From contig SMSO01000008.1 in assembly GCA_004764695.1 (NCBI GenBank), positions 496,001 through 560,000 on the forward strand: a stretch of DNA of 64,000 nucleotides, given 5' to 3'. Positions 4,162 to 57,363 of the stretch are shown here, piece by piece. The notes beneath the pieces are model-generated. The model was not told where the DNA came from. It did no database searches and was given only the letters and a program-made list of their open reading frames with translations. Every line of letters starts with the position of its first letter. The first letter of the stretch is position 1. Source of the DNA: Schizochytrium sp. TIO01. Its lineage: Eukaryota; Protista; Bigyra: Labyrinthulomycetes. The position numbers and the translations under genes were made by a program.

Positions 4162-4193
<32 letters not shown>

Positions 4194-31249: not shown

Positions 31250-31509
31250 TGCTCGAGCAGCTCCTTACGCGTAGGTTTCGACTTGCCTCGCGTGTTTTTG
31301 CGCTCTTACGCTCTTATTTTGTGTCTTTGTGCTCGGCCTCTCTTAAATTGGTCTGCGGTGTTTTGAGGGATTCACTCCTTCATCGCTAAGTCTGCGCGCT
31401 TGTAGTGTGGGGACTAACAAGCTTCTCGGGGCTCGAGTACAATGCCAGTTTGTAACACAAATTCCATTAGGAGGGACTAAGGTTTGTGGTAGGTGACTCC
31501 TTTATAGAA

Positions 31510-35100: not shown

Positions 35101-38100
35101 TGCTTCTGACAGAGCTCCGCTTGCTACTGGCATAGCTGGATTTGCTGCTCCGCTTGCTTCCTTGTTCGCTTTCAGCGTCTCCACTCGGTGGTTCATAAGC
35201 TTGACATGCTTTAATGATCTCGAATCGCTTGCCCATGGGAATACCACCAGCCGCTTTCAACTCCACATGAGACCCCTTCTTACCAGCCTCGATGCTGAAA
35301 CCGTTGTCAAGAGCGGCATCGAGCTTGTCGGGAACTCCAGCTGCTTGAAAGATATCCTGCAACACCTCACGCTCAGATGGTATACTGACTGATGGGTTCT
35401 CGGGTGTCTCTTCGTGTCTACTCTTACTGCTTCTACCGCTCGTACGGCTCGAAGAGCTTCTTCTACCGCTTGCAGAACTTTGTTTGCTACTTGCTCTGCT
35501 GCTTTGACGGTTTCTCCCACCCTCATCATCATTGGGCTTTGCGTCCCCACTTGGAGGAACATATGTTTGACAAGCTTTAACGATGTCGAACCGCTCCTTA
35601 AAAGCAAACCCAGCCTCCTTAAGGCTGTCAGTATTGCCTTGTTCTCCTTGCTCTACTGTAAACCCAGATGCAATAGCAGCATCTACCTTGCTCTCCAAAC
35701 CTATTTCTGTAAAAATGGCTCGCAACGTGTCGACATTGCCAGGAGGCAATATGGGTGCACTTTTGTGGCTATTGATACTTTTCGTGCTTCTGACAGAGCT
35801 CCGCTTGCTACTGGCATAGCTGGATTTGCTGCTCCGCTTGCTTCCTTGTTCGCTTTCAGCGTCTCCACTCGGTGGTTCATAAGCTTGACATGCTTTAATG
35901 ATCTCGAATCGCTTGCCCATGGGAATACCACCAGCCGCTTTCAACTCCACATGAGACCCCTTCTTACCAGCCTCGATGCTGAAACCATTCTCAAGAGCGG
36001 CATCGAGCTTGTCGGCAATTTCAGCTGCCTCAAACATCTCCTGCAACACCTGACGCTCAGATAAAGGTTCTCGTCCACAGCTTTCCAGTCGAGAGTTTGA
36101 ACTACATTCGCTGTTCTGACTACAACTTGAACTCTCTTGTACCGTAGCAGGTGGTGTGCTGTCTGATTCGGACTCCTCGTCCTCTGAACCTTCCTCAATA
36201 ATTGTGGAGATCCTCTTATTGGATGATTGTCTACTTTTGCGATAGGAAATACTCATACGTTTACTAACGACCCTCTTCGCATCACTTTTTGTTGTTGAAT
36301 GACTTTTAACTTCACTTTGTGAGGACACACCGCTTGTTCGACTGACCCTATCAGCACCCACACTGGGCGTCCTAGATGATCTCTCACTTCGGTGGTTATT
36401 ATTCCCGACAGAATGAGACCGCTTACTACTCTGGCTAGAACGCGTCCTGCTGCGACTACTGCTTGTGCTTTGGCTTGCTGCTACTGAGCTTCCAGATGAC
36501 GATGTGAACGATTGCGGTCGGGCTGGTTTGACTTTCCAAATAGATGTTGGAGAATCAATGATGACGCTTTGCGGCTCGCTTGGTCTACTTGAAGTGCTAC
36601 CATGGTAGTTCTCTCCGCTGGGATGTCCCAAATCGGGATCAGCCACTTCAATTGCCAAGGCTTCATCGTCTTGATCTGTATGACTGGTAGTTCTTCTCAC
36701 AGATGGGTACGGTTCACCCTTGTTTGCTTGAATAATCGATAATCTGCGCGCAACAGCTTGTTGCTCCAACGCCTTCTTTTTCTTCGCCCGCTTTGCCGCC
36801 TTGGCTTCACGCTTGTTTTGTGTTGCCTTCTTGAAAACCTCTTTATAGTGTTCTTTTAACCCAGGGTCCTGAAAAATCTCATCTACAGAGTCGCTGTTTA
36901 TTCTTTTTGAGGCTGCTGGTGACCTGAACAGAGAAAACCGGTGTGAGACACCATTATGAATATCCTTGTTGTCACTGGAAGTGTTGGAAGTGATGTCTTC
37001 GTCTGCTCCATGTAGACGAAACAGCGTATTCATGACCCTGGTGGATCGTCTTTCCCGAGGCATTTCGCTAACCTTCTGAAGCACCATATCCATGTTTGGG
37101 CGAAATTTGGGTTGCGGGGCCCAACATTGCTTAATGAGTTTGCACATGCGAGCTTTCCATCCCGTGTTATCGCCAAAGGTTGGCCTTTCTCCACGGTCCA
37201 CAGCATCGACGACTTCGTCCACAGTGTAATTGTACCAAGGGGGTTGACGCTCTTTAATTTGCCAACACAGTATTGCGAACGAGTACACATCTGACCGTGG
37301 TGACCACCTCGCTGGCAATTCAAGAGTCTCCGGAGCAGCGTATGGAATGTTCCCTTCTGCAAAAGAATCTGGAATGAAGCCAAAGTCCGTCAACTTCACA
37401 CCGGGTTCGGCGCCCTCCAAGAGCAACACGTTCCGGGGCTGTAAGTTGCGATGCAATATGTTCAAGCTATGAAGGTGTGCGAGTCCCCGTGCTACTCCTT
37501 TCATAATAGTTTCTTCCTGTGATGGTGTGAGTTCGACCTCTTCATCATCGAGAAGGTCATCAAGACTCCAGTCGCACCGCTCCAAGACCAGCTGCAGACG
37601 CATGTCCCACATGTAGGCGCCCCATAAATGTACAAGATTACGATGGCTTATATTGGTCCATACACGTAAAACACGAAGAATCTCGACTTGGTCCTGGACA
37701 GACGTAAAGGAAGGATCTGATTTTGCCACAACGTCGATTCCTCGCCAGCGTCCGGCAACTGCTGTGCCAAAAGTTCCTTGGTGAATGATTGGCTCGATTA
37801 GCTTAACCTTTTTCCTGCGAATCGTGGCTGATTCGGCCTGCATTTCAACAGCAAGTTTTGATGCTAACTCTGCGAGACGGCCTTTTAAAGATTTGCGACC
37901 TGCCTTGGAGCTGTGTAATTTGGCATCTAATCCCTTGGCAGACAAGTCCCTCACCATGTGGCTTACTTTGCGTGCGAGGCGTGAGAGAGGGGGGTACTCG
38001 CTAGAAACTGCCTCCAAAGATTGTTTGAGCATAGCTGCGTCCCTCTCCAGGTCTTTACGATTATCACTCTTAAAGACCTCAAAAACGTCATCAGCATCAA

Positions 38101-38521
38101 AGGTATGGTGTGCATAAAAGTCATCTTGTCTGTGTGTCATTTCCAGCAAAGCTAGGTGCAGTTCATTTAAGTAATCAATGTAAAACCTTGACAAAATAAA
38201 CTGAGAGACAAAACCAGACTCCACATCGATATCTCTGGGTTCCTGCAATAGTGTCAGTATGTCTAGAAGGCTATGCAACATCTCCTCAAAGTCTACAAGA
38301 GCCTCAACACGTTCACTTCCGGAGAGTCGTTTATTGACAGCAATGACATCTTTCACTATACCCCAGATGGCTTTCCTTTTTTTGCCCAAAACACCTGGAG
38401 TGCTCAAGGCATCACGAAGCTCATTTGCAAGGTCATCTAGTCTCGCGTCGCCAGCTCCTTTGCGATGTCTCTGTGGAACAACCGCGCGACTTTGTGCCTT
38501 TTTGCCAACTAGACTTGACAT
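32198..38521 (-). CDS. Gene A: MLKL-like helical N-terminal domain + TKL-type pseudokinase + ~12 SAM-like domains (2107 aa)
   Basis: Kinase motifs HQGTFG, VVAK, LHRNLQPRNVLL (no catalytic Asp), DFG, YAAPE, SDVYSF. SAM pattern e.g. VLKILKEAGLEKYQANFSEHKFRTLKDCQKLDHTILRSMGVSTYTERAKALRVL. Confidence 0.88.
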   Translation of the reverse strand: MSSLVGKKAQSRAVVPQRHRKGAGDARLDDLANELRDALSTPGVLGKKRKAIWGIVKDVIAVNKRLSGSERVEALVDFEEMLHSLLDILTLLQEPRDIDVESGFVSQFILSRFYIDYLNELHLALLEMTHRQDDFYAHHTFDADDVFEVFKSDNRKDLERDAAMLKQSLEAVSSEYPPLSRLARKVSHMVRDLSAKGLDAKLHSSKAGRKSLKGRLAELASKLAVEMQAESATIRRKKVKLIEPIIHQGTFGTAVAGRWRGIDVVAKSDPSFTSVQDQVEILRVLRVWTNISHRNLVHLWGAYMWDMRLQLVLERCDWSLDDLLDDEEVELTPSQEETIMKGVARGLAHLHSLNILHRNLQPRNVLLLEGAEPGVKLTDFGFIPDSFAEGNIPYAAPETLELPARWSPRSDVYSFAILCWQIKERQPPWYNYTVDEVVDAVDRGERPTFGDNTGWKARMCKLIKQCWAPQPKFRPNMDMVLQKVSEMPRERRSTRVMNTLFRLHGADEDITSNTSSDNKDIHNGVSHRFSLFRSPAASKRINSDSVDEIFQDPGLKEHYKEVFKKATQNKREAKAAKRAKKKKALEQQAVARRLSIIQANKGEPYPSVRRTTSHTDQDDEALAIEVADPDLGHPSGENYHGSTSSRPSEPQSVIIDSPTSIWKVKPARPQSFTSSSGSSVAASQSTSSSRSRTRSSQSSKRSHSVGNNNHRSERSSRTPSVGADRVSRTSGVSSQSEVKSHSTTKSDAKRVVSKRMSISYRKSRQSSNKRISTIIEEGSEDEESESDSTPPATVQESSSCSQNSECSSNSRLESCGREPLSERQVLQEMFEAAEIADKLDAALENGFSIEAGKKGSHVELKAAGGIPMGKRFEIIKACQAYEPPSGDAESEQGSKRSSKSSYASSKRSSVRSTKSINSHKSAPILPPGNVDTLRAIFTEIGLESKVDAAIASGFTVEQGEQGNTDSLKEAGFAFKERFDIVKACQTYVPPSGDAKPNDDEGGRNRQSSRASSKQSSASGRRSSSSRTSGRSSKSRHEETPENPSVSIPSEREVLQDIFQAAGVPDKLDAALDNGFSIEAGKKGSHVELKAAGGIPMGKRFEIIKACQAYEPPSGDAESEQGSKRSSKSSYASSKRSSVRSTKSINSHKSAPILPPGNVDTLRAIFTEIGLESKVDAAIASGFTVEQGEQGNTDSLKEAGFAFKERFDIIKACQTYVPPSGDAKPNDDEGGRNRQSSRASSKQSSASGRRSSSSRTSGRSSKSRHEETPENPSVSIPSEREVLQDIFQAAGVPDKLDAALDNGFSIEAGKKGSHVELKAAGGIPMGKRFEIIKACQAYEPPSGDAESEQGSKRSSKSSYASSKRSSKSSYASSKRSKNSKRSKSSHEVDDEEEIARTPEEKALQRIFEEVGLGDKFEDALTHGFTIEAGKKGSHVELKAAGGIPMGKRCEIIKACQAYKPPSGDAESEQGSKRRSSKSSYASSKVSEKSSTSEQDGEQDDYPPEHKPLHKIFVDLQIEDKFEDALTHGFSMEVGMAGSHVGLEEAGVSMGKRHHLIKACKAYGQNLKGERRSRKKSVIPSEDEIARDDAIVLEIFKKAKVPDKFEDAKIHGFSLAVGRTGSVQELKSAGVLRAERAAIIKLCQEYRDINSRASSDTEEEDENEEEDAVVAEVEDDEAEEDESNNHEETGLPIATPDVDSEVLKILKEAGLEKYQANFSEHKFRTLKDCQKLDHTILRSMGVSTYTERAKALRVLRDPHDEPKETSKPIELPKPIELPLPIEPYPPSPSEVNEQTQIREILKKAGVSDSDCDKLFEKGANTIENCKALSHRELRNIGFPNFSTRDKMIQAFSDLPDQSRPARQSKITSFIRKSIARLSRKSKRESQPAPEPLEGLSEEEKSADNDSTTDEDSRLSSSISSGTGSTRSRRSEPVVDENSEKGMVLKILRQHELMSAFKALDEANLTSMRKMKKLTHTELRAAGFIRFGDRQKIIEAFTPNDSSRTKPNSISNAAEPARERSSTVASRRSTRLFSIMEEDARMDEVTRVLKNIGMDSYAALIISKGYDTVEKAAQLNHTVLRKDICISTYKDRDVIIQAFRDEKAKKNGAA
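34430..36060 (-). repeat. In-frame 684-bp (228-aa, two-SAM) tandem repeat in gene A, ~2.4 copies
   Basis: Identical shadow ORFs recur at a 684-bp offset (34708/35392, 34730/35414, 35017/35701). Confidence 0.93.
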
Positions 38522-41132: not shown

Positions 41133-42006
41133 GTCTTTGTTAAGTAGTGAAGGTTAGGTAAGAAAATGGAATGGCCGAAGAACTACCAAGCTCCGAATAG
41201 TGCAAGTGAACCAAACCTTCAATTCGAATTATCAAAGCGCTTCAACTAGAAGTTTGGCGCCTCAGTACGTACCCTTCGGGTGCTTCCCCGGAGGCAATTG
41301 CAAATACGCAAGTGACGATGTCGAGGGCACCGATGGCTATGGTTTGTTACGGCGGCTGCGAGCAACGCAGCACTGACCGTACCATTATCTCCGAGATGGT
41401 GTTTCCCGCCAAGAGAAAGAGAATTCTACATTCTAGGTTGGCATCCTCCAGCGTGTCTATCCAGACGCCTCCGCCGTCGACAAAGGCATTGGTAGAGGGG
41501 TCGACTTTAAAAGGCTGGGCTTGCGCCACCTGATGACCTGGACCACTGAGATCCACCACCAGCTTAAGCTTTGGCTCTGTGAAAACTATGGTGTTCTCCT
41601 TTTGCATAAATTTGAAACCTCAACAAGTTAACAAGATGGATCAAAATCAAGACCGCTCGAGTGATGTATCGTTCGTTGGTTCCAGCCACACGCCCATTCA
41701 CAAAGCCGAGCTATTCACCACTGATGTAAACTGATTCTTTTTCGAGATTAATGCACTTCAAAACCATGCAATGAGTGTGTTATCATCCATGACAAGCTCA
41801 AAACATCCTTGATTTTCAAATGCCCCCCAAGATGCAAATACATAGCTGATCGTGATCTCCGTGCCGACAGAGGCATCCTTTTGCGCTACCTATCCAAGGG
41901 CATGGTTTAGGAATTATTCTTGAGTCGCAGGTTAGCTTTTGACTTGCGATCGGGCCTTAGCCCCACTTTGTCACCATAGAACATGCAAGTCTTGCAAATC
42001 CTATAG
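41133..42006 (+). mobile_element. Internally deleted, non-autonomous copy of the IS607/Fanzor2 element
   Basis: aggtctttgttaagtagtgaaggttaggtaagaaaatgg matches the copy-1 left end, and a TnpA relic follows (QRVYPDASAVDKGIGRGVDFKR). Near 41540 the sequence jumps to Fanzor LWLCENYG, TSKPCNEC and ADRDLRADRGILLRYLSK, then the hairpins and TATAG. Confidence 0.88.
41915..42006 (+). ncRNA. Putative omegaRNA scaffold (copy 2)
   Basis: Hairpins at 41925-41949, 41952-41963 and 41984-41996 are homologous to those of copy 1. Confidence 0.65.
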
Positions 42007-42473
42007 GTCAATTACCGAGTGAAGTTTTATGAAGTTTTATTTGTCAAATTATGTCATGTCATCCTCTTTCGTAATTTTAAATTCCAAGAACGGCGCTTGT
42101 TGTTGGCGTTTATAACGAAAACTTGACAGTGGATGTCTGCTTGATATGAGAAGTGCCAAAACTCTCAGAGGCAAAGCCCTGCACATAGTTCTTGCAACCC
42201 AAGTTGAGCAAGGGATATTTTTATGCACAATTCCTGAATTAGCACAACAATACTTTCTTGGCTTTGACAATGTGTGCTAAAGGTACGCATGGCAAGGGCT
42301 AGAAGGCGAGGGCTAGAAGGCGATTCCTGTGCGATTTCGCGTTGCTTAGATCTGGGCGAAGTTGGATTGCTTACTTGCATACTTGCTTATTAGTTGTTTA
42401 AAAAAAAATTGGTCCGCTATTTTTCTGGTATTCAGTTGAGCTGAAACAAAGCTACATAAAGAGCCAAAGGGGC

Positions 42474-45400
42474 CTAGAAGAGCCCAAGGAACTTCTTTTT
42501 CTTCTTGGGCTTCTCGTAGGAGACAGCCAGATCTATTTCTTTGCAGACAACCTCACGGATTTGGCGACCAGCGCCAAATCGCACAAGGTACTTGCTATCT
42601 GGAAGCTTGTTTGCAACCTGTCCAATTTCACCCATGTGCACACGAGCGTTTGTTCCCTTATAACGAACATAACTCCCGATTGCAAACTTAGGTCGCATGT
42701 TAGGTCGAGCATCTTCACCATAGCGCGATGGAGTAACGGCACCCTTAACAGCATTGAGGATCTTCTCACGGTCTCCAAACATAGTAATCCCCATGTTACG
42801 AAGCTGGGGGTGTCCAAGTTTCGAGCACTTACTCACTGTATCAAAGCCAGCATTACACATCGCCTTGTAGTATCTCTGTACGCCAGCATCAGTAAGCAAG
42901 TCCAAAAGTTCTTCGTCCTCAGAGGAACTGCCACCCCGACGTCGTGAACTAGATCGTGACCGAGACCGGCTGCCACTGCGAGAAGACACAGCTTGAAAGG
43001 CCTTGATGATCTGATCGCGCTCAGCATATGTAGGTATATTCATAGTACGAAGGGTTGTGTGATTCAGTTCTTTGCATTGCTTCAAGGTAGGATATCGACG
43101 GGAGATGATCGCATAATAGCGATCTGCGCCAGCACTTTTCAGGGCTTTACGAATGGCAGCTGAATCATCGGCATCAGACGAACTTCCGCTCGAGCTACTG
43201 GAGCCCCGACGCCGAGAGTGAGATTTTGGTTTCTTCTCTGCATTGGCCTTAATGTACTTAATAATCTCAAAGCGTTGGGTCATAGGAATATCAACCGCCT
43301 TTAACTCAACGTGTGAACCTTTCAAAGCTTTCTCTACTGTGAAACCCTGCTTCAGCAGTGGACTTAGCTTTGAATAACATCTTACACTCTTAAGCGCATC
43401 TTTGATGATTTCTTCATCATCACTACTTCCCTCCGAGCTCTCAGAAGAAGACGAACTTCCTCGGGAGCGACCCCGACTGCGACTTTTGCTTCGCGATTTG
43501 CTACTTGACTTCAAGTCTTTCATGGCTTTCATTAACTTATCACGATCTGAGAACAAGGTTATACCGGCCGATCGGAGGTCAGCATGGTTCAGAGCTTGAC
43601 ACTTCTTAACCGTATTAAAGCCTTGTTCGAACAGCTTCTTCCTGTAGATGCTCATACCTACACTCTTCAAAGCATCCTTAATAAGTGCTTCGTCATCACC
43701 CGAGCTCGAGGAAGACGAAGATGATGACGACCTCTTGCTACCTCGAGATCGGCCGCGAGATCGACTCCGACTACGTGACTTGCTCTTGCTCTTGCTCTTG
43801 CTCTTTCGTGAAGATTTATAGGCTTTAAAGGCCTTGATGAGACGTTCCCGTTCGCTGTATGTCAATATGAAAGATAGCAAATCAGCGTGGGTGAGGGACT
43901 GGCAAGTCTCAATCGAGTCAAAGCCCTTCTTGAATAGGTCTTTACGATATTGATCAAGCTTATTCTCCTTTAAGATCTCTTTGATCGTAGCTTCATCCTC
44001 AGAACTTCCTCCACTTCCTGACGAGCTTGATCCAGAGGAACTGCCTTTGCTACTGTCACTCCCACTCGATGAAGACGAGGAGCTATGCTTCTTTTTAGAC
44101 TTACTCTTGCTACGACTCTTGCTTCTCTTTGAGGGTTTTAAGTCGCGGAAGGCTGTAATGATCTTATCACGATCTGAGAAGAGTGACACACCAGCAACAC
44201 GTAGATTGGCATGTGTGAGATCCTTAGTCTTCTTGAAGGAGGTTAGGCCAACTTTCTTAAATTCCCTCGCATACTTCTCGTTATCCAGCTTCTTTAAAAC
44301 TTTCTTAATTTCACCCCACTCATCTGCACTTGAGCCAGAACTACTCCCAGAAGACCCGGAACTAGAACCTGATGAGGAGCTGCTCTCGCTTTTGCTGCGC
44401 TTCCGGCTCCGGGGCTTGCTTACAGATACGTTCTTAAAGGCGCTTATGATCTTGTCGCGATCAGCAAACCTGGTTATCCCAGCATTTTTGCGCAGGTCAG
44501 TATGGTTCACCTCTTTGAGTTTCTTCAGAGACATTAAGTCAGCTTTTTGGAGGTTTCTGCGGAAATCATCGAGTCCTTCTTTCTTGAGAATCTTCTTGAT
44601 CGTTGCTTTGTCATCTTCACGTGAATGGTCCCTGCTACGGCTGTGACTTCTCCTTCTTGACTTTGAAGCTTTCATTTCAGCAAAAGTGTTGATCACTTTC
44701 TCACGCTGAGTATACATTACCATTCCAGCCTCCCGCAGGTCGATATGTTGCATAGCTTTACACTTTTTGATCGTAGTGAAGCCCTTCTTTCGAAGGTACT
44801 TCCGAACCTTATCGTCAACTTCCAGTTTTTGGAGCGTCTTTTTGATCCTTTTCTCATCGTCACCACCACTACCTGAGTCCGAGCTGCTAAAAGAACTGCT
44901 TGAACTACCACCGCGGGAACGGCTGCGACTCCTGTGCTTGGATTCGCTGTGGCTGCGGCTTGTCTTCATTTTCCCTTCGGCTTCCTTAAAGGCGTTGAGA
45001 ACTCTTTCACGATCAGTGAAAGACGACATTCCAACTTGTCTTAGATCAGAGTGACTCATTTCGGCGCACTTCTTAACACTATTGAACCCTTTCTTTATTA
45101 AGTCCTTCCTTATTGAATCATTAATGTTGCATTCCTCCAGAACCTTTTTAATAACTGATTCCTCATCGCTCCTGCTGCTTCTGCTGCGACCGCGACTGAG
45201 GCTTTTACCCTCATCTAAATCACGGAGGCATTGGATCACTTTGTGGCGATCCGAATATAGGGTCATGCCGATTGCACGAAGCTCCCCGTGTGATAGATTC
45301 TTGCATTTTCGGATTGTAGTATAGCCACTATTAAAGAGAGTTTTGGTGTATTTCTCAAGACCCTCCTTTTTCAAGATCTTCTTGATCTCCTCCGAGTCGC

Positions 45401-47063
45401 TGCCCGCATCAATCTCGTTGCTACTGCTGCTACCTGAGGCTGAATCTCTTGAGCCCCCGCCTGCCGAGCTACTATCCGCCTGGCTCTGACCATATTCATG
45501 GGAAGGTTGCTCCGTCGTACCGAGACCAAACATCTGTTGCAACACACGAGTTGATCGTCGGTCTCGAATACGCTCCTCTAGCTCTCGTTGAATCTCCGCC
45601 ATGGAAGGTCTCTCCTCAATTCGCGCCGACCAAGCCTTCGTGACAATCTTCAGCAATCGCGACTTCCATGCTGTGTCATCACCTATGGATGGCCTGACGC
45701 CTTCTTGGACCTCCTCAATTATCGTTCCAGGATATTCGTTTACCCAAGGTTCTTGACGTTCCTTGATTTCATAGCATAACATGGCAAATGCGTACACGTC
45801 AGCATACTGGGTCCAATGCGGGGATTCGCCCATGATCTCTGGAGCCGTGTACGCCAACATGGACGAACTTTCGTGCTTGCACAAGCCAAAGTCAGTAAGC
45901 TTGATGTTCGAACGCAAGTGCTTGGCGCACATGACGGTCTCCGGGCACAAGTTCTGGTGTAGAATGTTGTGACTATGCAGGTGGGCTAAGCCCCGAGCTA
46001 CGCCTTTCATGATGGTTTCTTCTTCAATAAGAGATAGCTCCCGATCTCGATCGCTGAGAAACTCTTTCAGGCTAAAGTCGCAAGGTTCTACAATGAGCTC
46101 GACTTGCGACTCTAGGGCGCGTACGCCGTAGAGACGAACAAGATTGCGATGATTTATATTTTGCCAAGTCTGAGTTGCGCGGTCAAGCTGAGTGATCTCC
46201 TGAAGTTGCATTCTGGCAACCGAGACATGCTTGCTCAGAACACGTTTCTTCTTCCACACAGCGGCCGCAGGAGTACCAAAGATTCCCTGAGGCTCGACAC
46301 GAGCAAGGCCTGCGGGCTCATACGTAAGGTCGACCTCACGAATGGTAGCGTTTTTGATGAGCAGCTGGACAGCCAGCTGCATTGCGAGACCTTTGAAGCT
46401 GGTTCTCAGGAGCTCTCCATCCTCTGAGCTGGATGTCCAACACAAGTGGAAGTCTTCAGCACGTGACTGAAGAGGGGCTGTGAGGCGCTGGAGGTTTTGA
46501 GCCTCGGTATGGAGGAGCTGCAAGTCGAATTGGATAGCTTGGAGAGCAGCAGGAAGTATAGCGAGATCATCCTGCAAGTCTGCGAGGTTATCCTTGTCTA
46601 GTATGTGTGTCGTTGAGCTTGATGCAGGATCCTCGTCTTGGGTTGAAGTTGATTTAGAGTCAACTTCATTTTCATTGATGCTGCATACGCTCTGAAGAGT
46701 AAGGGTGAGGTCCTGTTGTAGACTATCGAGTTGCCCAATGAAGGATCGTGCATTGAAGAATTGCACAATGAAGGCTGGCAGGTATGACTGGCCTGTGGAA
46801 CGCGGTTCCTGAAGAGTGACAATAATGTCGAAAGTCTGGCGAGCGCATTGCTCGATCTGGACAAGGTCTTGTTTTGTAAGTCTCTGAGAAGCAGAAACGT
46901 TTTGCAAGATTTGTGTGACTAGCGTGAGGAGAGTGGCCCTTTTTCGTTCTAGCACACGTGGTGCCTGAAGTGCACCTTTGAGCTGCTTGAGCAAATCTTG
47001 GGTTTGTTTCTTAGTGGTGTCGTTGCCCACATTGCGGCTCCTCCTGAACAAGCTCGTTCGCAT
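42474..47063 (-). CDS. Gene B: MLKL-like N-terminal domain + pseudokinase + 10 SAM-like domains + SH3-like barrel + polybasic tail (1529 aa)
   Basis: Kinase motifs LHQNLCPETV, DFG, YTAPE. Ten ~60-aa repeats of the form I..IL...GL..Y...L...G..T...C..L.H.DLR..G......R.KII.AF, separated by S/R/K linkers. Ends KPKKKKKFLGLF. Confidence 0.9.
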   Translation of the reverse strand: MRTSLFRRSRNVGNDTTKKQTQDLLKQLKGALQAPRVLERKRATLLTLVTQILQNVSASQRLTKQDLVQIEQCARQTFDIIVTLQEPRSTGQSYLPAFIVQFFNARSFIGQLDSLQQDLTLTLQSVCSINENEVDSKSTSTQDEDPASSSTTHILDKDNLADLQDDLAILPAALQAIQFDLQLLHTEAQNLQRLTAPLQSRAEDFHLCWTSSSEDGELLRTSFKGLAMQLAVQLLIKNATIREVDLTYEPAGLARVEPQGIFGTPAAAVWKKKRVLSKHVSVARMQLQEITQLDRATQTWQNINHRNLVRLYGVRALESQVELIVEPCDFSLKEFLSDRDRELSLIEEETIMKGVARGLAHLHSHNILHQNLCPETVMCAKHLRSNIKLTDFGLCKHESSSMLAYTAPEIMGESPHWTQYADVYAFAMLCYEIKERQEPWVNEYPGTIIEEVQEGVRPSIGDDTAWKSRLLKIVTKAWSARIEERPSMAEIQRELEERIRDRRSTRVLQQMFGLGTTEQPSHEYGQSQADSSSAGGGSRDSASGSSSSNEIDAGSDSEEIKKILKKEGLEKYTKTLFNSGYTTIRKCKNLSHGELRAIGMTLYSDRHKVIQCLRDLDEGKSLSRGRSRSSRSDEESVIKKVLEECNINDSIRKDLIKKGFNSVKKCAEMSHSDLRQVGMSSFTDRERVLNAFKEAEGKMKTSRSHSESKHRSRSRSRGGSSSSSFSSSDSGSGGDDEKRIKKTLQKLEVDDKVRKYLRKKGFTTIKKCKAMQHIDLREAGMVMYTQREKVINTFAEMKASKSRRRSHSRSRDHSREDDKATIKKILKKEGLDDFRRNLQKADLMSLKKLKEVNHTDLRKNAGITRFADRDKIISAFKNVSVSKPRSRKRSKSESSSSSGSSSGSSGSSSGSSADEWGEIKKVLKKLDNEKYAREFKKVGLTSFKKTKDLTHANLRVAGVSLFSDRDKIITAFRDLKPSKRSKSRSKSKSKKKHSSSSSSSGSDSSKGSSSGSSSSGSGGSSEDEATIKEILKENKLDQYRKDLFKKGFDSIETCQSLTHADLLSFILTYSERERLIKAFKAYKSSRKSKSKSKSKSRSRSRSRGRSRGSKRSSSSSSSSSSGDDEALIKDALKSVGMSIYRKKLFEQGFNTVKKCQALNHADLRSAGITLFSDRDKLMKAMKDLKSSSKSRSKSRSRGRSRGSSSSSESSEGSSDDEEIIKDALKSVRCYSKLSPLLKQGFTVEKALKGSHVELKAVDIPMTQRFEIIKYIKANAEKKPKSHSRRRGSSSSSGSSSDADDSAAIRKALKSAGADRYYAIISRRYPTLKQCKELNHTTLRTMNIPTYAERDQIIKAFQAVSSRSGSRSRSRSSSRRRGGSSSEDEELLDLLTDAGVQRYYKAMCNAGFDTVSKCSKLGHPQLRNMGITMFGDREKILNAVKGAVTPSRYGEDARPNMRPKFAIGSYVRYKGTNARVHMGEIGQVANKLPDSKYLVRFGAGRQIREVVCKEIDLAVSYEKPKKKKKFLGLF

Positions 47064-49480: not shown

Positions 49481-49494
49481 AGGAGCCGTCCTAA

Positions 49495-50045
49495 AGTTGG
49501 TGACGTTTCTCCGCGCATGGTCAACTTTAATTCGACTTGATACGAGCAATATTTTATTAGTTCTACTAATTTGAAAACTTTCTCATTTTTTTTAATTAAA
49601 TAAAAAAAAATAACCTTTCAACTTTTAATTAAATAGTTTTCAATTTGAAAAAAAATAAAATTGTTTTTATTCAAAGTTCAAGGCTTGTACCTACTTATCT
49701 TCTAGCCGTAAATACCATCACTTTATCAAATATGAATATGTGAGTAGGTAGGTAGGCAGGGTACGTACATAGTAGGTACTAATGCTAAAAACCACCATTC
49801 TTATTCAAAATCCTCCAAATCCCCAAAATCTTTAAAATCTCTAAAAGTTTCAACTTAAAGATCAGTGATGCTATACCTTCAAGTCAAAACAAAGTGTCCT
49901 CGAAAACTCGAAAGTGAGAGGGTTCATATATTAATATTATGCTTAATGCAAAATCTTGGCAGATTTAAGATAGATTAGCCACTTCAAGAAAGTTGGATCG
50001 TGCTTACAATCAAGACTTAATTTGCAAAACCTGAACGCAAGAGAA
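49495..50045 (+). repeat. Left inverted repeat flanking gene C (partner 54465-55020)
   Basis: agttggtgacgtttctcc...gcaatattttatta and cagatttaagatagattagccacttcaagaaa match the reverse complement of 54465-55020. Confidence 0.88.
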
Positions 50046-50105
50046 CACCACCCAGAGCTCAAACTGATCAAGCGCCACTACCACTATTGCATCAACAGGC
50101 AGACG

Positions 50106-53100
50106 ATGCGAGCGAGCTTGTTCAGGAGGAGCCGCAATGTGGGCAACGACACCACTAAGAAACAAACCCAAGATTTGCTCAAGCAGCTCAAAGGTGCACT
50201 TCAGGCACCACGTGTACTAACACGAAAAAGGGCCACTCTCCTCACGCTAGTCACACAAATCTTGCAAAACGTTTCTGCTTCTCAGAGACTTACAAAACAA
50301 GACCTTGTCCAGATCGAGCAATCCGCTCGCCAGACTTTCGACATTATTGTCACTCTTCAGGAACCGCGTTCCACAGGCCAGTCATACCTGCCAGCCTTCA
50401 TTGTGCAATTCTTCAATGCACGATCTTTCATTGGGCAACTCGATAGTCTACAACAGGACCTCACCCTTACTCTTCAGAGCGTATGCAGCATCAATGAAAA
50501 TGAAGTTGACTCTAAATCAACTTCAACCCAAGACGAGGATCCTGCATCAAGCTCAACGACACACATACTAGACAAGGATAACCTCGCAGACTTGCAGGAT
50601 GATCTCGCTATACTTCCCGCTGCTCTCCAAGCTATCCAATTCGACTTGCAGCTCCTCCATACCGAGGCTCAAAACCTCCAGCGCCTCACAGCCCCTCTTC
50701 AGTCACGTGCTGAAGACTTCCACTTGTGTTGGACATCCAGCTCAGAGGATGGAGAGCTCCTGAGAACCAGCTTCAAAGGTCTCGCAATGCAGCTGGCTGT
50801 CCAGCTGCTCATCAAAAACGCTACCATTCGTGAGGTCGACCTTACGTATGAGCGCACAGGCCTTGCTCGTGTCGAGCCTCAGGGAATCTTTGGTACTCCT
50901 GCGGCTGCTGTGTGGAAGAAGAAACGTGTTCTGAGCAAGCATGTCTCGGTTGCCAGAATGCAACTTCAGGAGATCACTCAGCTTGACCGCGCAACTCAGA
51001 CTTGGCAAAATATAAATCATCGCAATCTTGTTCGTCTCTACGGCGTACGCGCCCTAGAGTCGCAAGTCGAGCTCATTGTAGAACCTTGCGACTTTAGCCT
51101 GAAAGAGTTTCTCAGCGATCGAGATCGGGAGCTATCTCTTATTGAAGAAGAAACCATCATGAAAGGCGTAGCTCGGGGCTTAGCCCACCTGCATAGTCAC
51201 AACATTCTACACCAGAACTTGTGCCCGGAGACCGTCATGTGCGCCAAGCACTTGCGTTCGAACATCAAGCTTACTGACTTTGGCTTGTGCAAGCACGAAA
51301 GTTCGTCCATGTTGGCGTACACGGCTCCAGAGATCATGGGCGAATCCCCGCATTGGACCCAGTATGCTGACGTGTACGCATTTGCCATGTTATGCTATGA
51401 AATCAAGGAACGTCAAGAACCTTGGGTAAACGAATATCCTGGAACGATAATTGAGGAGGTCCAAGAAGGCGTCAGGCCATCCATAGGTGATGACACAGCA
51501 TGGAAGTCGCGATTGCTGAAGATTGTCACGAAGGCTTGGTCGGCGCGAATTGAGGAGAGACCTTCCATGGCGGAGATTCAACGAGAGCTAGAGGAGCGTA
51601 TTCGAGACCGACGATCAACTCGTGTGTTGCAACAGATGTTTGGTCTCGGTACGACGGAGCAACCTTCCCATGAATATGGTCAAGGCCGCCTTGTTGAGAG
51701 GGCCTCAACGTCGAAGGTTTTTGAGGCAGGTGAGCGTCGCCCATTCCCATCCGGATCTTTAAGTGATATCTTTGATGCAATCTGGAATGGTGGTGAAGAG
51801 GAGGCCTTGAAGAAGAAGATCAGGAGTGAGAAAAGAAGCACTCGAATGCGCAAAGGCCGCAAGCATAGGTTTAAGCAGGGTCATACTCCTAGATGGAGTG
51901 CTGAGAAAATCAACATTTTCCAGAATCTTGATGATGAACAAGAGGAAATTGCCCGTACTCCTGAAGAGAAAGCTCTCCAAAGGATCTTTGAAGAAGCCGG
52001 CTTGGGTGACAAGTTTGAAGATGCCTTGACACACGGTTTTACCATCGAGGCTGGCAAGAAGTGTTCTCATGTGGAGTTGAAAGCGGCTGGTGGCATTCCC
52101 ATGGCCAAGCGATTCGAGATCATTAAAGCATGTCAAGCCTATGAAGCACCGAGTGGAGACGCTGAAAGCGAACAAGGAAGCAAGCGGACCAGCAAATCCA
52201 GCTATGCAAGTAGCTATAGTTCACATGAGGTAGATGACGAGCAAGAGGAAATTGCCCGTACGCCTGAAGAGAAAGCTCTCCAGAGGATCTTTGAAGAAGC
52301 CGGCTTGGGTGACAAGTTTGAAGATGCCTTGACACACGGTTTTACCATCGAGGCTGGCAAGAAGTGTTCTCATGTGGAGTTGAAAGCGGCTGGTGGCATT
52401 CCCATGGCCAAGCGATTCGAGATCATTAAAGCATGTCAAGCCTATGAAGCACCGAGTGGAGACGCTGAAAGCGAACAAGGAAGCAAGCGGACCAGCAAAT
52501 CCAGCTATGCAAGTAGCTATAGTTCACATGAGGTAGATGACGAGCAAGAGGAAATTGCCCGTACGCCTGAAGAGAAAGCTCTCCAGAGGATCTTTGAAGA
52601 AGCCGGCTTGGGTGACAAGTTTGAAGATGCCTTGACACACGGTTTTACCATCGAGGCTGGCAAGAAGTGTTCTCATGTGGAGTTGAAAGCGGCTGGTGGC
52701 ATTCCCATGGCCAAGCGATTCGAGATCATTAAAGCATGTCAAGCCTATGAAGCACCGAGTGGAGACGCTGAAAGCGAACAAGGAAGCAAGCGGACCAGCA
52801 AATCCAGCTATGCAAGTAGCTATAGTTCACATGAGGTAGATGACGAGCAAGAGGAAATTGCCCGTACGCCTGAAGAGAAAGCTCTCCAGAGGATCTTTGA
52901 AGAAGCCGGCTTGGGTGACAAGTTTGAAGATGCCTTGACACACGGTTTTACCATCGAGGCTGGCAAGAAGTGTTCTCATGTGGAGTTGAAAGCGGCTGGT
53001 GGCATTCCCATGGCCAAGCGATTCGAGATCATTAAAGCATGTCAAGCCTATGAAGCACCGAGTGGAGACGCTGAAAGCGAACAAGGAAGCAAGCGGACCA

Positions 53101-53558
53101 GCAAATCCAGCTATGCAAGTAGCTATAGTTCACATGAGGTAGATGACGAGCAAGAGGAAATTGCCCGTACGCCTGAAGAGAAAGCTCTCCAGAGGATCTT
53201 TGAAGAAGCCGGCTTGGGTGACAAGTTTGAAGATGCCTTGACACACGGTTTTACCATCGAGGCTGGCAAGAAGTGTTCTCATGTGGAGTTGAAAGCGGCT
53301 GGTGGCATTCCCATGGGCAAGCGATTCGAGATCATTAAAGCATGTCAAGCCTATGAACCACCGAGTGGAGACTCTGAAGTTTACAAAATTCTGAAGGAAG
53401 CTGGCCTGGAAAAGTATCAGGCTAGTTTTTCTGAGCACAAATTTCGAACCCTAAAAGATTGCCAAAAACTTGATCATACAGCACTGCGTAGCATGGGTGT
53501 AAGTACCTATACAGAACGAGCGAAAGCATTAAGGGTATTGCGAGATCCCCAGAATTAA
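50106..53558 (+). CDS. Gene C: B-type head + A-type SAM tail (6 SAM-like domains), ~1150 aa
   Basis: ATG at 50106 matches the B start. 50106-51683 is nearly identical to B. Then come five copies of the A module EEIARTPEEKALQRIFEE.. and one A-type DSEV.KILKEAGLEKYQ module. Confidence 0.88.
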   Translation: MRASLFRRSRNVGNDTTKKQTQDLLKQLKGALQAPRVLTRKRATLLTLVTQILQNVSASQRLTKQDLVQIEQSARQTFDIIVTLQEPRSTGQSYLPAFIVQFFNARSFIGQLDSLQQDLTLTLQSVCSINENEVDSKSTSTQDEDPASSSTTHILDKDNLADLQDDLAILPAALQAIQFDLQLLHTEAQNLQRLTAPLQSRAEDFHLCWTSSSEDGELLRTSFKGLAMQLAVQLLIKNATIREVDLTYERTGLARVEPQGIFGTPAAAVWKKKRVLSKHVSVARMQLQEITQLDRATQTWQNINHRNLVRLYGVRALESQVELIVEPCDFSLKEFLSDRDRELSLIEEETIMKGVARGLAHLHSHNILHQNLCPETVMCAKHLRSNIKLTDFGLCKHESSSMLAYTAPEIMGESPHWTQYADVYAFAMLCYEIKERQEPWVNEYPGTIIEEVQEGVRPSIGDDTAWKSRLLKIVTKAWSARIEERPSMAEIQRELEERIRDRRSTRVLQQMFGLGTTEQPSHEYGQGRLVERASTSKVFEAGERRPFPSGSLSDIFDAIWNGGEEEALKKKIRSEKRSTRMRKGRKHRFKQGHTPRWSAEKINIFQNLDDEQEEIARTPEEKALQRIFEEAGLGDKFEDALTHGFTIEAGKKCSHVELKAAGGIPMAKRFEIIKACQAYEAPSGDAESEQGSKRTSKSSYASSYSSHEVDDEQEEIARTPEEKALQRIFEEAGLGDKFEDALTHGFTIEAGKKCSHVELKAAGGIPMAKRFEIIKACQAYEAPSGDAESEQGSKRTSKSSYASSYSSHEVDDEQEEIARTPEEKALQRIFEEAGLGDKFEDALTHGFTIEAGKKCSHVELKAAGGIPMAKRFEIIKACQAYEAPSGDAESEQGSKRTSKSSYASSYSSHEVDDEQEEIARTPEEKALQRIFEEAGLGDKFEDALTHGFTIEAGKKCSHVELKAAGGIPMAKRFEIIKACQAYEAPSGDAESEQGSKRTSKSSYASSYSSHEVDDEQEEIARTPEEKALQRIFEEAGLGDKFEDALTHGFTIEAGKKCSHVELKAAGGIPMGKRFEIIKACQAYEPPSGDSEVYKILKEAGLEKYQASFSEHKFRTLKDCQKLDHTALRSMGVSTYTERAKALRVLRDPQN
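51930..53372 (+). repeat. In-frame 303-bp (101-aa, one SAM + linker) near-perfect tandem array, ~4.8 units
   Basis: Shadow ORFs recur at 52221/52524/52827/53130, a 303-bp period. Confidence 0.95.
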
Positions 53559-54435
53559 CCAACAGAACCGCCAAAGCCGATAGAACTGCCACTGCCGATA
53601 GAACCAGATTCTCAAAAAGGCTGGTATAAGCGATTCCGATTGCAATAAATTATTCAAGAAAGGTGCTAACACTATTGAGAATTGCAAAGCTCTTAGCCAC
53701 CGCGAACTTCGAAATATTGGATTCCCGAATTTTTCAACTCGTGATAAAATGCTTCAGGCGTTTTCAGACTTACCAGATCAAAGTCGCCCTGGTCGTCGAA
53801 GCAAGATTAATATCTTCATTAGAAAATCGATAGTTCGTCTATCCAGAAAGTCGCAAAGAGAATCTCAACCTGCACCAGAGCCGCTTGAAGAGCTAAGTGA
53901 GAAAGAGAAGAGCGCAGACGATGACAGTACTACTGACGAGGACTCTCGTTTTTCTAGAGTACAGGGACATCAACTCGCGTGCTTCCAGCGATACTGAAGA
54001 AGAGGACGAAAACGACGAAGAGGACGCTGTTGTAGCAGAAGTGGAAGATGTTGTAACAGAGGTGGAAAATGATGAAGCAGAAGAAGATGAAAGCAACAAC
54101 CACGAAGAAACTGAATTGCTGATCGCTATCCCAGATGTAGACTCTGAAGTCGCGAGAATTCTGCAGGAAACTGGCCTGGAAAAGTATCAGACTATTTTTG
54201 CTGAGTACAAATTTCTAACCCTTAAAGATTGTAAAAGCATTGATTATTCGGTACTGCGTGGTATTGGAGATAGGTACCTATACAGAACGAGCGAGAGCAT
54301 TAGGGTATTGCGTGATTCCCAATAGTAGATCTGGCTTTCTCCTACGAGAAACCCAAAAAGAAGAAGAAGTTCCTTTGGCTCTTTTTGTAGCTTTTTGTTC
54401 CAGCTCAACTGAATACCATAAAGCAAGCGGACCGT
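53559..54435 (+). pseudogene. Out-of-frame scrambled tail fragments: A-derived pieces followed by the B C-terminus and 3' UTR
   Basis: A-like QAFSDLPDQSRP..ESQPAPEPLE precedes A-like EYRDINSRASSDTEEEDE, the reverse of their order in A. Then agatctggctttctcctacgagaaacccaaaaagaagaagaagttcc...cagctcaactgaatacca matches the end of B. Confidence 0.85.
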
Positions 54436-54464
54436 CTTTTAAAGATATAAAAGTACTTACCAAG

Positions 54465-55020
54465 GTGCTCACACGTTAAGGTTTTGCAAACCAAGTAAAT
54501 CAATATTTTAGAAATCACCTTCAATTAAGTTTTGATTCTAACCATAATCCAGTTTTCTTGAAGTGGCTAATTTATCTTAAATCTGCAAAGATCTTGCATT
54601 AATCATAACATCAGTATACCCACCCTCTCACCTTCGAGTTTTCGAGAGCATTTTGGTTTGACTTAAAGGTAGCATCACTGATCTTTAAGTTGAAACTTAA
54701 AGATTTTGGGGATTTTAGAAATTTGGAGGACTTGGAGGACTTGGAGGACTTGGAATAAGAATTGTGGTTTTTAGCATCAGTATCTACCTACTTGCTTATA
54801 GTTCAAAGTATCCTTTTTAGAGTGATGGTATTTAGCCTACCTGTCTAGCTATGATATACCTTGTTGATAATAAAAAATAAAACAATAAGTTGTTTTTTTA
54901 ATTTTTATAAAAAACGACAAAAATAAACGAGAAAGTTTTTCAAGTAGTCGAATTAATAAAATATTGCTCTTATCAAGTCGAATTAAAGTTAACTATGCCT
55001 GGAGAAACGTGACCAACTGA
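54465..55020 (-). repeat. Right inverted repeat flanking gene C
   Basis: Reverse complement of 49495-50045, with one short indel. Confidence 0.88.
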
Positions 55021-57360
55021 AGAAAGATCAACCAAAAATTTTGCATAGCCTCGCCAGAACACCCCCTGTTTTGTACATGCCGTACAGAGAAAAAGAAAAA
55101 AAAGAAAAAAAGGGGTTCCGCAAAAAGAAAAAGGGTTCAGCAAGTATTGTTTAAGGTGGCTCAAGTTCCTTTGCATGTTGATGAATATGATAAAAAAACT
55201 ATATTGTACCCTGTTTTAATATGTAATACAAGGGAACTAAATAAGCGGTAAAAATTGGACATGCCCTCATCCTCGTTTTGTCCACCTAGAACCAGTTATA
55301 TGATAATAATAGAGACAGAGATGGGTGGTCCCGGCCTTTTTATAATGAAAAGTTTAGTTTGAGATATATAGGTAATAGTAAACTACTATTATTTTTAGAT
55401 CAGTGTAATAGGGGAACTCAGAAAATAATAGAAGGATTAATCTCTCTGTGAATGGGAGAGAACCTACGCTTTAATCACAGTCGTGTTGGCTAGTGGGGAG
55501 AAGATTTACCTCACAAAAAAATATGATCCTGTTTCTTGTATATATAATATAGAGATCATGAATATTAGGGTGATTACGATTGGGGTCAAATAATATTACA
55601 AGAACTTAGGACTGAGTTTGTTCAATCTGGGTCTCCACTTGATGGTTTGCATAATTCCCCTCCGGGTTCAACCTGTGAAATTCATAATGGCGGAGGAGAA
55701 TATTGACATGCCTATTAATAAGTATGCAGATCTGGAGATTGAGGATGACACTTGGGGCCAACATAGCATAGATTGTCGTTGCAAGTCCATTAGATTAAAT
55801 TTATTCAAGATTGCACATAGAAGGTTTTTTGTGTGAAGATTGGAGATGCTCGTGAATGGTTTGATAGAATTAACAAGAAAGCTTGGTTGTGGTGGCCTTC
55901 GTGGAGACTGGAGCATGCTAAGTAGTATGATAAGGACTAATTGTATGCAAGAGATGCTCGACGTGGCATCCAGCAAAGATGTTTCGTGAAATGCAAAATA
56001 TTACTCTGTCCGCATTGTGATAGCAGCCCAATTGACCATCAAACTGGTGAATGGCATGACATCAAAGCCACTGCCCTCAGCATCGTCCAGAAAATCATGC
56101 GCCATCAAATCGCTCTCGCAGAAGAGTGATCAAAGTTTGGAGAGAAGAGGATCTACTAAAGATACCGTGATAAATATTTACGAATATCGGTCTTATGTGC
56201 CTCCTATCAGAGACAGCAACATGTTGCCTGCTGAGAAAACTTTTAGGAGTGGAAATGTAGTGACGCTAAAGAAGATGGCTGCCATGCTTTATACAAGTGA
56301 CCTCTTGCCAATTTCTTTGGCGGAATTTCCTCAGAAACGTAATCAAGGATGTTTCAAGTCTGATATTCAGTTGGAACTCCGGCTTGATCATGCAACGATA
56401 AGTTCGAGCTCAGGATCTTTACAATATGTCTCTCAAACTCTCTCATGAATCTTTACTTGCAGATGCTTCAGGTGAATTAGGTGAGCGTTGAAGAACGTCG
56501 TCGCGAGACAGTTTTCTTGACATCTTTTCGCACCAACATCAGCGAGGACTTGAACAAAGACTTGAAGAAAATTTCCTAGAATTCTCTCGAGCAACGTGAA
56601 TTTGTCAAAGTCAAGAAGACTAGTTTATTGCCCACTCTGCTGTTCCCTTCATTTGTAAAGAGAATCATGATGCCCCTTTAAGCAAGCCATTGGACCTTGG
56701 TGACGCTGTGTTATAAAGATAAAACTCTCTATACTTATGACCCTCTCAAAAACCGTAATGACGGTTGCCATGACGAAAGGATTGAGAGCATTCTCTGATA
56801 GCTCAAGTTGGATGAATCTAACTGGTCAGTCAAGAAATTCTCTGGTCATCAAGAAAATGGCTATGGCTGCGGAGTGTATATTATGGCTGTAGCGAATGGT
56901 CTTTTGCATGGGGAAATCAATATTGCAGTGCTTGCAGAGAGTATTATGCCATCCTATGGAAATTCTGACCTGATGGAATATCAGAGGTTGTAGTTTGCGA
57001 CTTTTGCTGACATACTTCTAGACACAAATCGATTTTATGCTTGCGAAAGCTTCTTCGAAATGAGAGGAGCCTTTAAGCTCTTTCATCCTTGACTTCAAGC
57101 CTCAATAATTCGAGAAAGAGGTTGTTGCGATTGTTCAAGAACCCTCTCCAGCTGTTGACGATTCCCTTGACACTATGTTAGAGAGTTCTATCAACTTTTT
57201 TGGAAATTCGAAGGCTTCCTTATAACGCTTACTAACGTTCTCTTTAGGTCCACCTTAGCACCTTAAAACTTCCTTAAACTATAAACCCTTTTCACATTCT
57301 TCCAAGTTCCTTGATAAGAGATAATATGAACGTGCAAATGTAGTTAAGTGACGTAAGTCT
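55021..57360. mobile_element. ~2.3-kb insertion (relative to the paralogous arm) carrying a decayed Ulp1/C48-like protease; probable transposon relic
   Basis: The flanks are adjacent in the other arm (~49480-49495). On + at ~56660-56890: MMPL*ASHWTLVTLCYKDKTLYTYDPL and HQENGYGCGVYIMA. No TIR or TSD recognised. Confidence 0.55.
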
Positions 57361-57363
57361 ACC

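What the first reader, a model, noticed from the sequence alone, without database searches (positions are those of the whole stretch)
50106..54435. Gene C is a B-A-B chimera: SAM modules are exchanged between paralogs
C has the B head (nearly identical over ~1.58 kb) and a linker shared with D (HEYGQG.L.ERAS..KV.EAGER). Its SAM modules are nearly identical to modules 6 and 9 of A, skipping A modules 7-8. After its stop come A fragments in permuted order and finally the B C-terminal codons and 3' UTR. D ends in a copy of the first SAM of B. A constant head with a recombining repeat tail is the pattern of diversifying immune or self-recognition receptors, such as the repeat domains of fungal NLRs.
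Basis: partly seen in the sequence, partly recalled or inferred. Interest (0 to 1): 0.8.

Follow-up and report, generated by a model that had tools for sequence, protein, structure and literature searches.

The report
Patchwork pseudokinase gene with borrowed repeats
Gene C is a real patchwork of pieces of its three neighbouring paralogs, with the same main joints in four sequencing runs, so it is likely an old, settled recombination product rather than a fast-shuffling immune receptor, although its front end is predicted to resemble the cell-death protein MLKL.

Summary
The mosaic is real. C (50106-53558) has B's head (9 differences in 1,577 nt), a D-like linker, five tandem copies of a module 93-94% like A6 and one A9-like module. 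After the stop lie A10, a second A9 and B's end and 3' UTR. Two C-specific joints are bridged in 4 of 4 runs from four studies, so misassembly is unlikely.

The NLR-style reading is only partly supported. The joints seen are shared between strains. C's repeats carry no variable residues (units 2-4 identical; dN/dS 0.16-0.31 against A6). The pieces differ in age, and homogenisation also hits non-coding DNA and pseudogene D. This fits repeated gene conversion and microhomology template switches inside an inverted duplication. Repeat number across strains is unresolved; contig depth hints that it varies.

The more unusual feature is the family: a predicted four-helix bundle, a kinase domain lacking the catalytic Asp, and 6-12 SAM modules. 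This looks like MLKL with a SAM tail, but membership is inconclusive and I found no description in five paper searches.

The parts
32198..38521 (-). Gene A, 2,107 aa: helical head, kinase domain with HRN in place of HRD, 12 SAM-type modules (A2-A3 and A4-A5 are a 99.5% internal duplication). Donor-like for C's tail.
42474..47063 (-). Gene B, 1,529 aa: helical head, kinase domain with HQN in place of HRD, 10 SAM modules, basic C-terminus
49495..50037 (+). X: C-proximal end of the B-C intergenic region, the inner end of arm 1 (45487-50037) of an inverted duplication
50106..53558 (+). Gene C open reading frame, 1,150 aa, no intron needed
50023..51682 (+). B-like 5' leader and head of C: predicted four-helix bundle, further helices, pseudokinase; 9 nt differences from B in the coding part
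51683..51816 (+). D-like linker (about 80% nt), ending in 24 nt that match the start of module D3 (23 of 24)
51817..51932 (+). In-frame stretch with no donor in the window
51930..53378 (+). About 4.8 tandem 303-bp units, each with an A6-like SAM-type module; units 2-4 identical
53366..53558 (+). A9-like SAM module (95% nt) and the stop codon TAA at 53556-53558
53559..53951 (+). After the stop: A9/10 spacer with two deletions, A10-like module (95%), A10/11 spacer; dN/dS 1.7 on few changes
53956..54321 (+). After the stop: end of A8, A8/9 spacer, decayed second A9 copy (83% nt in the module); dN/dS about 1.0
54326..54464 (+). B-like last codons and 3' UTR
54474..55018 (-). X': inverted copy of X including 17 nt of C-like leader, the inner end of arm 2
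55019..57363 (.). 2.3 kb insertion in arm 2 with broken frames that resemble a Ulp1-type cysteine protease (motifs recognised from memory, not confirmed by a profile search)
57364..59694 (-). Inverted copy of the rest of the B-C intergenic region (arm 2), 82-100% identical in patches
59778..62510 (+). Pseudogene D: B-like head with stops at 61209-61211 and 61275-61277, linker shared with C, modules D1-D3, truncated B1-like module

Best explanation
Gene C is a mosaic of its neighbours A, B and D that was likely built in several old steps of ectopic recombination and is likely now a settled, probably expressed gene for a predicted four-helix-bundle pseudokinase with a SAM tail. Shown: the pieces, their donors, short shared sequence at several joints, different divergence of the pieces, and the same joints in other strains. 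Inferred history: (1) B and C form a head-to-head pair. An inverted duplication of B's head plus the intergenic region gave D and left C in the loop. (2) An older C tail ran parallel to A (A6 ... A8 end, spacer, A9) and ended in B's terminus. (3) A later microhomology-guided template switch put A9-A10 in place of A7-A8, which explains the 'permuted' order in one step. A point change to TAA then cut the frame and the rest decayed. (4) The A6-like unit was amplified by unequal exchange or slippage. (5) Gene conversion keeps the three heads alike. Inferred function (about 0.4): an MLKL-like switch, where the dead kinase holds a four-helix effector and the SAM modules set oligomer or partner contacts. 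Tail swaps would then change partners slowly, over evolutionary time.
For: Donor map and tree. Shared sequence at joints: 14 nt at head|linker, a GAC.CTGAA match at A6|A9, 5 nt at the tandem joint, 2-3 nt elsewhere. Layered ages: synonymous differences 8 of 40 sites for A6 against 4 of 115 for A9+A10 (Fisher p 0.002); linker about 80%; head 99.4%. Constraint on the in-frame unit (dN/dS 0.16-0.31, p 0.01 or lower) and none after the stop (1.0-1.7). Linker|A6 and second-A9|B-end joints bridged in 4 of 4 runs; stop present with 0 differences in X1 and X15. In X4 and X12, 6 of 13 and 6 of 11 listed head differences fall where B, C and D agree in the window, as expected if new alleles spread across heads. 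A non-coding patch at 47650-48150 is 100% identical between arms. Catalytic Asp missing in A, B, C and P0001. Four helices predicted at pLDDT 73.
Against: The order of events rests on one haplotype and small counts; C6 against A9 has dN/dS 1.2 (1.8 synonymous, 7.2 non-synonymous). About 115 nt have no donor in the window, so an unseen paralog may be the true donor of the tail. A6|A9 and the tandem joint were shown only for X15 (116 contig rows were not displayed). A word typical of A1/A3/A5 (3 copies in the window) has 5.2, 4.2 and 6.9 times single-copy depth in X1, X4 and X12, a hint of variable module number. The head-allele argument assumes contigs keep the majority allele. X15 is only guessed to be RNA. 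No fold match stands clear of generic helical bundles.
Confidence: 0.62

Rival explanations
1. The cluster is a diversifying defence or self-recognition system: an MLKL-like killing head kept constant, and SAM tails that vary in number and order between strains and set specificity, working like het-e/het-d WD40 repeats.
For: Highly conserved internal repeats in both A (99.5%) and C (99-100%), and module transfer between genes. Atlas leads to MLKL_N and MCAfunc at 0.76-0.80 for both heads (one source, under the 0.9 mark). Fold neighbours include Rx CC, NRG1.1 CC-R and MLA13. Depth hint of strain-variable module number. PMC10197012 (passages) describes such shuffling in fungal NLRs.
Against: Same joints in 4 of 4 runs where visible. 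No variable residues among C units 1-4 and dN/dS below 1. No NOD and no WD40/TPR/ANK repeats. Conversion also affects non-coding DNA and a pseudogene.
Confidence: 0.18
2. C is a neutral, decaying by-product of repair in an unstable inverted repeat, transcribed or not, on its way to the fate of D.
For: Premature stop relative to A, decayed pieces after it, dN/dS near 1 for C6 and the post-stop pieces. Neighbour D already has two stops. The low dN/dS of the A6-like unit could date from its time in a donor gene.
Against: A 1,150-codon frame stays open across five joints. The C contig alleles dominate the head in the run guessed to be RNA: 0 differences from C over 50113-51682, although B differs at 9 sites there. 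The structure is kept in strains that differ by SNPs.
Confidence: 0.15
3. C is a Pack-type transposon: terminal inverted repeats X and X' that captured fragments of A, B and D.
For: C is flanked by about 530-bp inverted repeats and holds fragments of several genes; a protease-like relic lies next to X'.
Against: X and X' continue into a 4.5-kb inverted duplication that includes the B and D heads. No target-site duplication is seen in the flanks printed. X has single-copy depth and lies on long unbranched contigs in X1 and X12.
Confidence: 0.03
4. The joints are assembly errors between similar paralogs.
For: The exact number of 303-bp units could not be checked with short contigs.
Against: C-specific joints and alleles occur in contigs of four runs from four studies; head depth is 2.6-3.1 times single copy, as three heads predict; C's pieces differ from their donors by 5-20%.
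Confidence: 0.02

Closest known systems
MLKL and plant MLKL-like proteins (four-helix/HeLo domain, brace, pseudokinase; 10.1101/681015, passages read)
   Same: N-terminal helical bundle, further helices, then a TKL-type kinase domain without the catalytic Asp; serine-rich C-terminal extension (15-18% Ser in the tails of A and B).
   Different: 6-12 SAM modules in the tail, whereas the plant tail is described as lacking any known domain. No Pfam MLKL_N hit and no MLKL chain among the listed fold matches. Killing activity untested.
Fungal NLR allorecognition genes het-e/het-d and kin (PMC10197012, passages read)
   Same: Paralogs with highly conserved internal repeats, concerted evolution and exchange of repeats between genes.
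   Different: No NACHT/NB-ARC domain. Repeats are 62-aa SAM modules in about 100-aa units, not 20-40-aa WD40/TPR/ANK. No hypervariable positions seen; joints shared between strains.
Chimeric genes from ectopic gene conversion and microhomology-mediated template switching in duplicated clusters (general knowledge; one search gave only a search listing)
   Same: Multi-donor patchwork, short shared sequence at joints, inverted duplication, patchy homogenisation of coding and non-coding DNA.
   Different: Here the exchanged units are whole SAM modules, and at least three layers of different age are stacked in one open frame.
SAM-containing signalling proteins such as ZAK, Ste11/Byr2 and SARM1 (recalled, from no call)
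   Same: SAM modules joined to a kinase or effector domain, where SAM contacts drive assembly.
   Different: Those have one or two SAMs; here 6-12 follow a pseudokinase. SAM self-association was not shown here.

Membership tests
Fungal NLR / het-e-type receptor | Central NACHT or NB-ARC domain | tested here: not met
   Pfam finds only kinase and SAM families above cut-off in A-D; the head is filled by the helical part and the kinase
Fungal NLR / het-e-type receptor | C-terminal WD40, TPR or ANK superstructure repeats of 20-40 aa | tested here: not met
   Modules are SAM-type. C1 scores 30.1 bits on a profile of 21 other modules against at most 3.3 for 300 shuffles; Pfam SAM hits
Fungal NLR / het-e-type receptor | Highly conserved repeats under concerted evolution and exchanged between genes | tested here: met
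   C units 99-100% alike; A2/A4 and A3/A5 99.5%; A6, A9, A10 in C and B1 in D
Fungal NLR / het-e-type receptor | Positive selection at variable repeat positions | tested here: not met
   One haplotype only: units 2-4 identical, dN/dS 0.16-0.31 against A6. A population test was not possible
Fungal NLR / het-e-type receptor | Many alleles that differ in repeat content | tested here: inconclusive
   Joints shared in 4 runs; repeats collapse in contigs; depth hint of 4.2-6.9 copies of one module word
MLKL-like proteins | N-terminal four-helix (HeLo/4HB) bundle | tested here: inconclusive
   Four helices, pLDDT 73. Matches: Cbl 4H Z 10.5-10.6 (rmsd 3.2-3.8, 106-109 aligned), Rx CC Z 9.3 (3.2, 107), NRG1.1 CC-R Z 9.0 (3.4, 102), MLA13 Z 8.5 (3.0, 105); GCP4 and a sperm microtubule protein score higher (11.3). 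All are under the mark of about 13 for bundles. Atlas leads 0.76-0.80
MLKL-like proteins | Brace helices between bundle and pseudokinase | tested here: inconclusive
   Helices 157-199 and 214-244 in a low-confidence model (mean pLDDT 38)
MLKL-like proteins | TKL-type pseudokinase lacking canonical catalytic residues | tested here: met
   HRD replaced by HRN (A), HQN (B, C), CNT (P0001); nearest solved sequences include a Src-Abl ancestor, BRAF, TAO, TAK1, CTR1 and RIPK1
MLKL-like proteins | Oligomerisation-dependent membrane damage or cell death | not testable with these tools
   Needs expression of the isolated bundle
Pack-MULE / Pack-TIR element | Terminal inverted repeats of a multi-copy family | tested here: not met
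   The inverted flanks are the inner ends of a longer duplication and have single-copy depth; no whole genome was held to look for distant copies
Pack-MULE / Pack-TIR element | Target-site duplication | tested here: not met
   None in the flanks printed (by eye; an old one could have decayed)

The most novel reading that the evidence does not exclude
A protist family of MLKL-like death switches whose four-helix killing domain and pseudokinase are kept uniform by gene conversion, while arrays of SAM modules, swapped between paralogs and varying in number between strains, act as the polymerising sensor. This would be an NLR-free self-recognition or antiviral system that uses SAM arrays where fungi use WD40 repeats.
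Probability: 0.13. Interest if true: 0.82.

Novelty: new variant of a known kind. Interest (0 to 1): 0.42.

Why it matters
The chimera itself is a clean, datable example of whole SAM modules moving between paralogs, but the process is known. The family matters more. If the head is an MLKL-type effector, this extends regulated cell death to another eukaryotic lineage and adds a SAM-array tail as a possible trigger. Both are directly testable: express the 130-residue bundle, and read the locus with long reads in the strains already sequenced.

Tried and rejected
No whole genome is held, so other paralogs and X-like copies could not be sought.

Homolog searches gave one family member outside the window, P0001 (1 of 39 hits). 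Searches gave only generic kinases. The N-terminal part gave one weak hit. None of the 7 window proteins looked up was in the collection as an exact sequence. Two metagenome scans found no locus.

No RNA holder is on record. X15, guessed to be RNA, has cover only from 50113 to 54518 and none on the flanks. Lack of cover is no proof, and only one such run was laid. Repeat number could not be read because units collapse and A-derived contigs are laid on C. The joints 52188/52214 to 53956 in X12 and X15 are most simply contigs of A itself, not C variants.

The single-sequence model of the whole head was poor (pLDDT 38) and its fold search meaningless. Foldseek gave nothing at E 0.001 or better. 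MLKL was not among the listed rows, which does not exclude it. A profile of the bundle found no relevant solved sequence. The dimer prediction for one C module gave no answer.

The Pack-transposon idea was dropped. The bacterial promoter scan is not applicable here. Earlier scan findings: none.

Paper searches for this architecture found no description: searches gave no paper; some searches gave listings whose titles and abstract starts were unrelated. Supplements were not read, and the library lacks most subscription papers. The organism was not identified. A thraustochytrid-like protist is my guess from recall (intron-poor genes, 60-68 Mb contig sets) and is untested.
Full report
Layout. The window's last 32 kb hold four paralogs read as single long frames: A (38521-32198, minus, 2,107 aa), B (47063-42474, minus, 1,529 aa), C (50106-53558, plus, 1,150 aa) and D (59778-62510, plus). 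A, B and C have about 240 residues without a Pfam hit, then a kinase domain, then SAM modules. D has the same plan but two in-frame stops in the kinase, at codons 478 and 500. No whole genome is held.

C 50023-51682 matches B at 98.8%; in the coding part 9 of 1,577 nt differ. Informative sites switch from B-like to D-like between 51668 and 51683, across a 14-nt stretch shared by both donors (max chi-square 69.4, 0 of 2,000 permutations as high). The D-like linker is about 80% identical and ends in 24 nt matching the start of D3. About 115 nt then have no donor in the window. Next come about 4.8 units of 303 bp whose module matches A6 (93-94% nt, next best 80-81%) and one A9-like module (95%). 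After the stop lie an A10-like module (95%), the A8 end with a decayed second A9 (83%) and B's last codons and 3' UTR. D4 matches B1 at 92%. The protein tree groups A9 with C6 and the second A9 (98/81), A10 with its post-stop copy (100/99) and B1 with D4 (100/99). It has few columns and an unsettled bootstrap. The A6-type module is missed by Pfam but scores 30 bits on a profile of 21 other modules, against 3.3 at most for 300 shuffles.

Not a misassembly. Twenty listed runs from 12 studies hold the stretch or part of it. I laid 4 of them, from four studies, on 49860-54715. Two C-specific joints are bridged by 31 or more letters on each side in 4 of 4 runs: linker|A6 (51933) and second-A9|B end (54321-54326). 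X1 and X15 carry the stop and the deletion behind it with no differences. 116 contig rows were not displayed, so joints not seen in the other runs are untested, not absent. X1, X4 and X12 differ from the window by SNPs and count as other strains. X15 has no differences and may be the window's own strain. Head depth is 3.05, 3.10 and 2.59 times single copy, as three heads predict; the tool warns that depth is no copy number.

Context. C's flanks looked like transposon ends. One search shows they are the inner ends of one inverted duplication. Arm 1 is B's head plus the whole B-C intergenic region. Arm 2 is D's head plus the same region, interrupted by a 2.3-kb insertion with broken protease-like frames. 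C lies in the loop. Identity between the arms is patchy, 82-100%, with fully identical stretches in the head and in non-coding DNA at 47650-48150. Gene conversion is therefore general in this cluster and not aimed at the head. It seems to continue. In X4, 6 of 13 listed head differences, and in X12, 6 of 11, fall where B, C and D agree in the window. If contigs keep the majority allele (an assumption), new alleles have spread over at least two heads.

Ages and selection. The A6-like core differs from A6 at about 8 of 40 synonymous sites, the A9 and A10 pieces at about 4 of 115 (Fisher p 0.002), so they arrived at different times. The simplest reading (inference) is an older tail parallel to A in which A7-A8 was later replaced by a copy of A9-A10. 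This gives the 'permuted' order in one event. Joints show short shared sequence of 2-14 nt, as template switching would leave. The in-frame unit has dN/dS 0.16-0.31 against A6. The post-stop pieces have 1.0 and 1.7, and C6 has 1.2 on about nine changes. Units 2-4 are identical; unit 1 differs by 4 nt and unit 5 by 3, and in protein only unit 5 differs. There is no sign of hypervariable positions.

Expression. No holder is on record as RNA. X15 is guessed to be RNA (34.8 million letters against 62-65 for the DNA runs). Its single head contig equals C at all 9 sites where B differs, with a loose end into B. In DNA run X1, the contig is B/D-type at 4 of the 5 sites where C stands alone. This is a weak sign that C is transcribed and outweighs B there; it could also reflect conversion in that strain.

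What the protein may do. The kinase domain lacks the HRD aspartate in A (HRN), B and C (HQN) and in P0001, the one outside relative, which has the same kinase-plus-SAM plan. Its nearest solved sequences include BRAF, TAK1, CTR1 and RIPK1. The N-terminal 130 residues fold as four helices (pLDDT 73 from three sequences). Structural neighbours include Cbl's four-helix domain (Z 10.5), Rx CC (9.3), NRG1.1 CC-R (9.0) and MLA13 (8.5), but unrelated bundles score as high and all are under the tool's mark. The Atlas points both heads to MLKL_N and MCAfunc clusters at 0.76-0.80, which shuffled proteins reach a third of the time. Together with the order bundle, helices, pseudokinase, serine-rich tail described for plant MLKLs (10.1101/681015, passages only), this makes 'works like MLKL' a fair lead (about 0.4), not a filing. 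I infer that the SAM modules provide oligomer or partner contacts.

Fungal NLRs have a NOD domain, short superstructure repeats, positive selection and many alleles (PMC10197012, passages only). Only concerted evolution with exchange between genes is met here. In its favour, one module word present three times in the window has 5.2, 4.2 and 6.9 times single-copy depth in three strains, so module number or type may vary in A or C.

Verdict. The feature is real and well described. The chimera is most likely an old, layered product of ordinary ectopic recombination that has been kept. The undescribed four-helix, pseudokinase, multi-SAM family is the part worth following (no description; listings only). 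Interest 0.42; new variant of a known kind.

Noticed in passing
window 55019-57363: 2.3-kb insertion in one arm of the inverted duplication, with stop-ridden plus-strand frames carrying His, Asp, Gln and Cys motifs like a Ulp1/SUMO protease (recalled); probably a transposon relic.
   Followed up: partly
window 42411-42535 versus 54326-54433: B's end carries a short tandem duplication around its stop codon (19 nt extra) that C's copy lacks.
   Followed up: no
window 45340-45487 versus 61355-62400: B's short linker matches two separate pieces of D (61732-61788 and 62081-62131), as if B lost, or D gained, the linker with D1 and the D2-D3 block.
   Followed up: partly
window 59778-61354: D-specific changes in the head are enriched in G>A and C>T (13 of 31), including both new stops.
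   Followed up: no
window 34430-36062: Gene A has its own recent internal duplication with a 684-bp period (modules A2-A3 and A4-A5, 99.5% nt).
   Followed up: partly
window 17600-19700 and 41100-41900: Broken frames resembling an IS607/IS605-type element (resolvase-like and TnpB/Fanzor-like, recalled), with diverged inverted fragments just downstream of gene B.
   Followed up: no
window 14932-17202 (minus): About 700-aa protein with a C-terminal TPR array (Pfam TPR_12) and an unannotated N-terminal part.
   Followed up: partly
window 2070-11282 (minus): 3,070-codon single frame that looks like a TRIP12/UPL-type HECT ubiquitin ligase with a SPRY domain (recalled); shows the genome is intron-poor.
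   Followed up: no
window 20061-21875 and 30791-31264 (minus): Two related bZIP-like frames sharing an 'R(N)..LEA.RP.YL.RIA.L' motif.
   Followed up: no
P0001: 1,310-aa relative from an unnamed assembly with the same helical head, an even more degenerate kinase (no DFG) and about seven SAM modules; the family extends beyond this species.
   Followed up: partly
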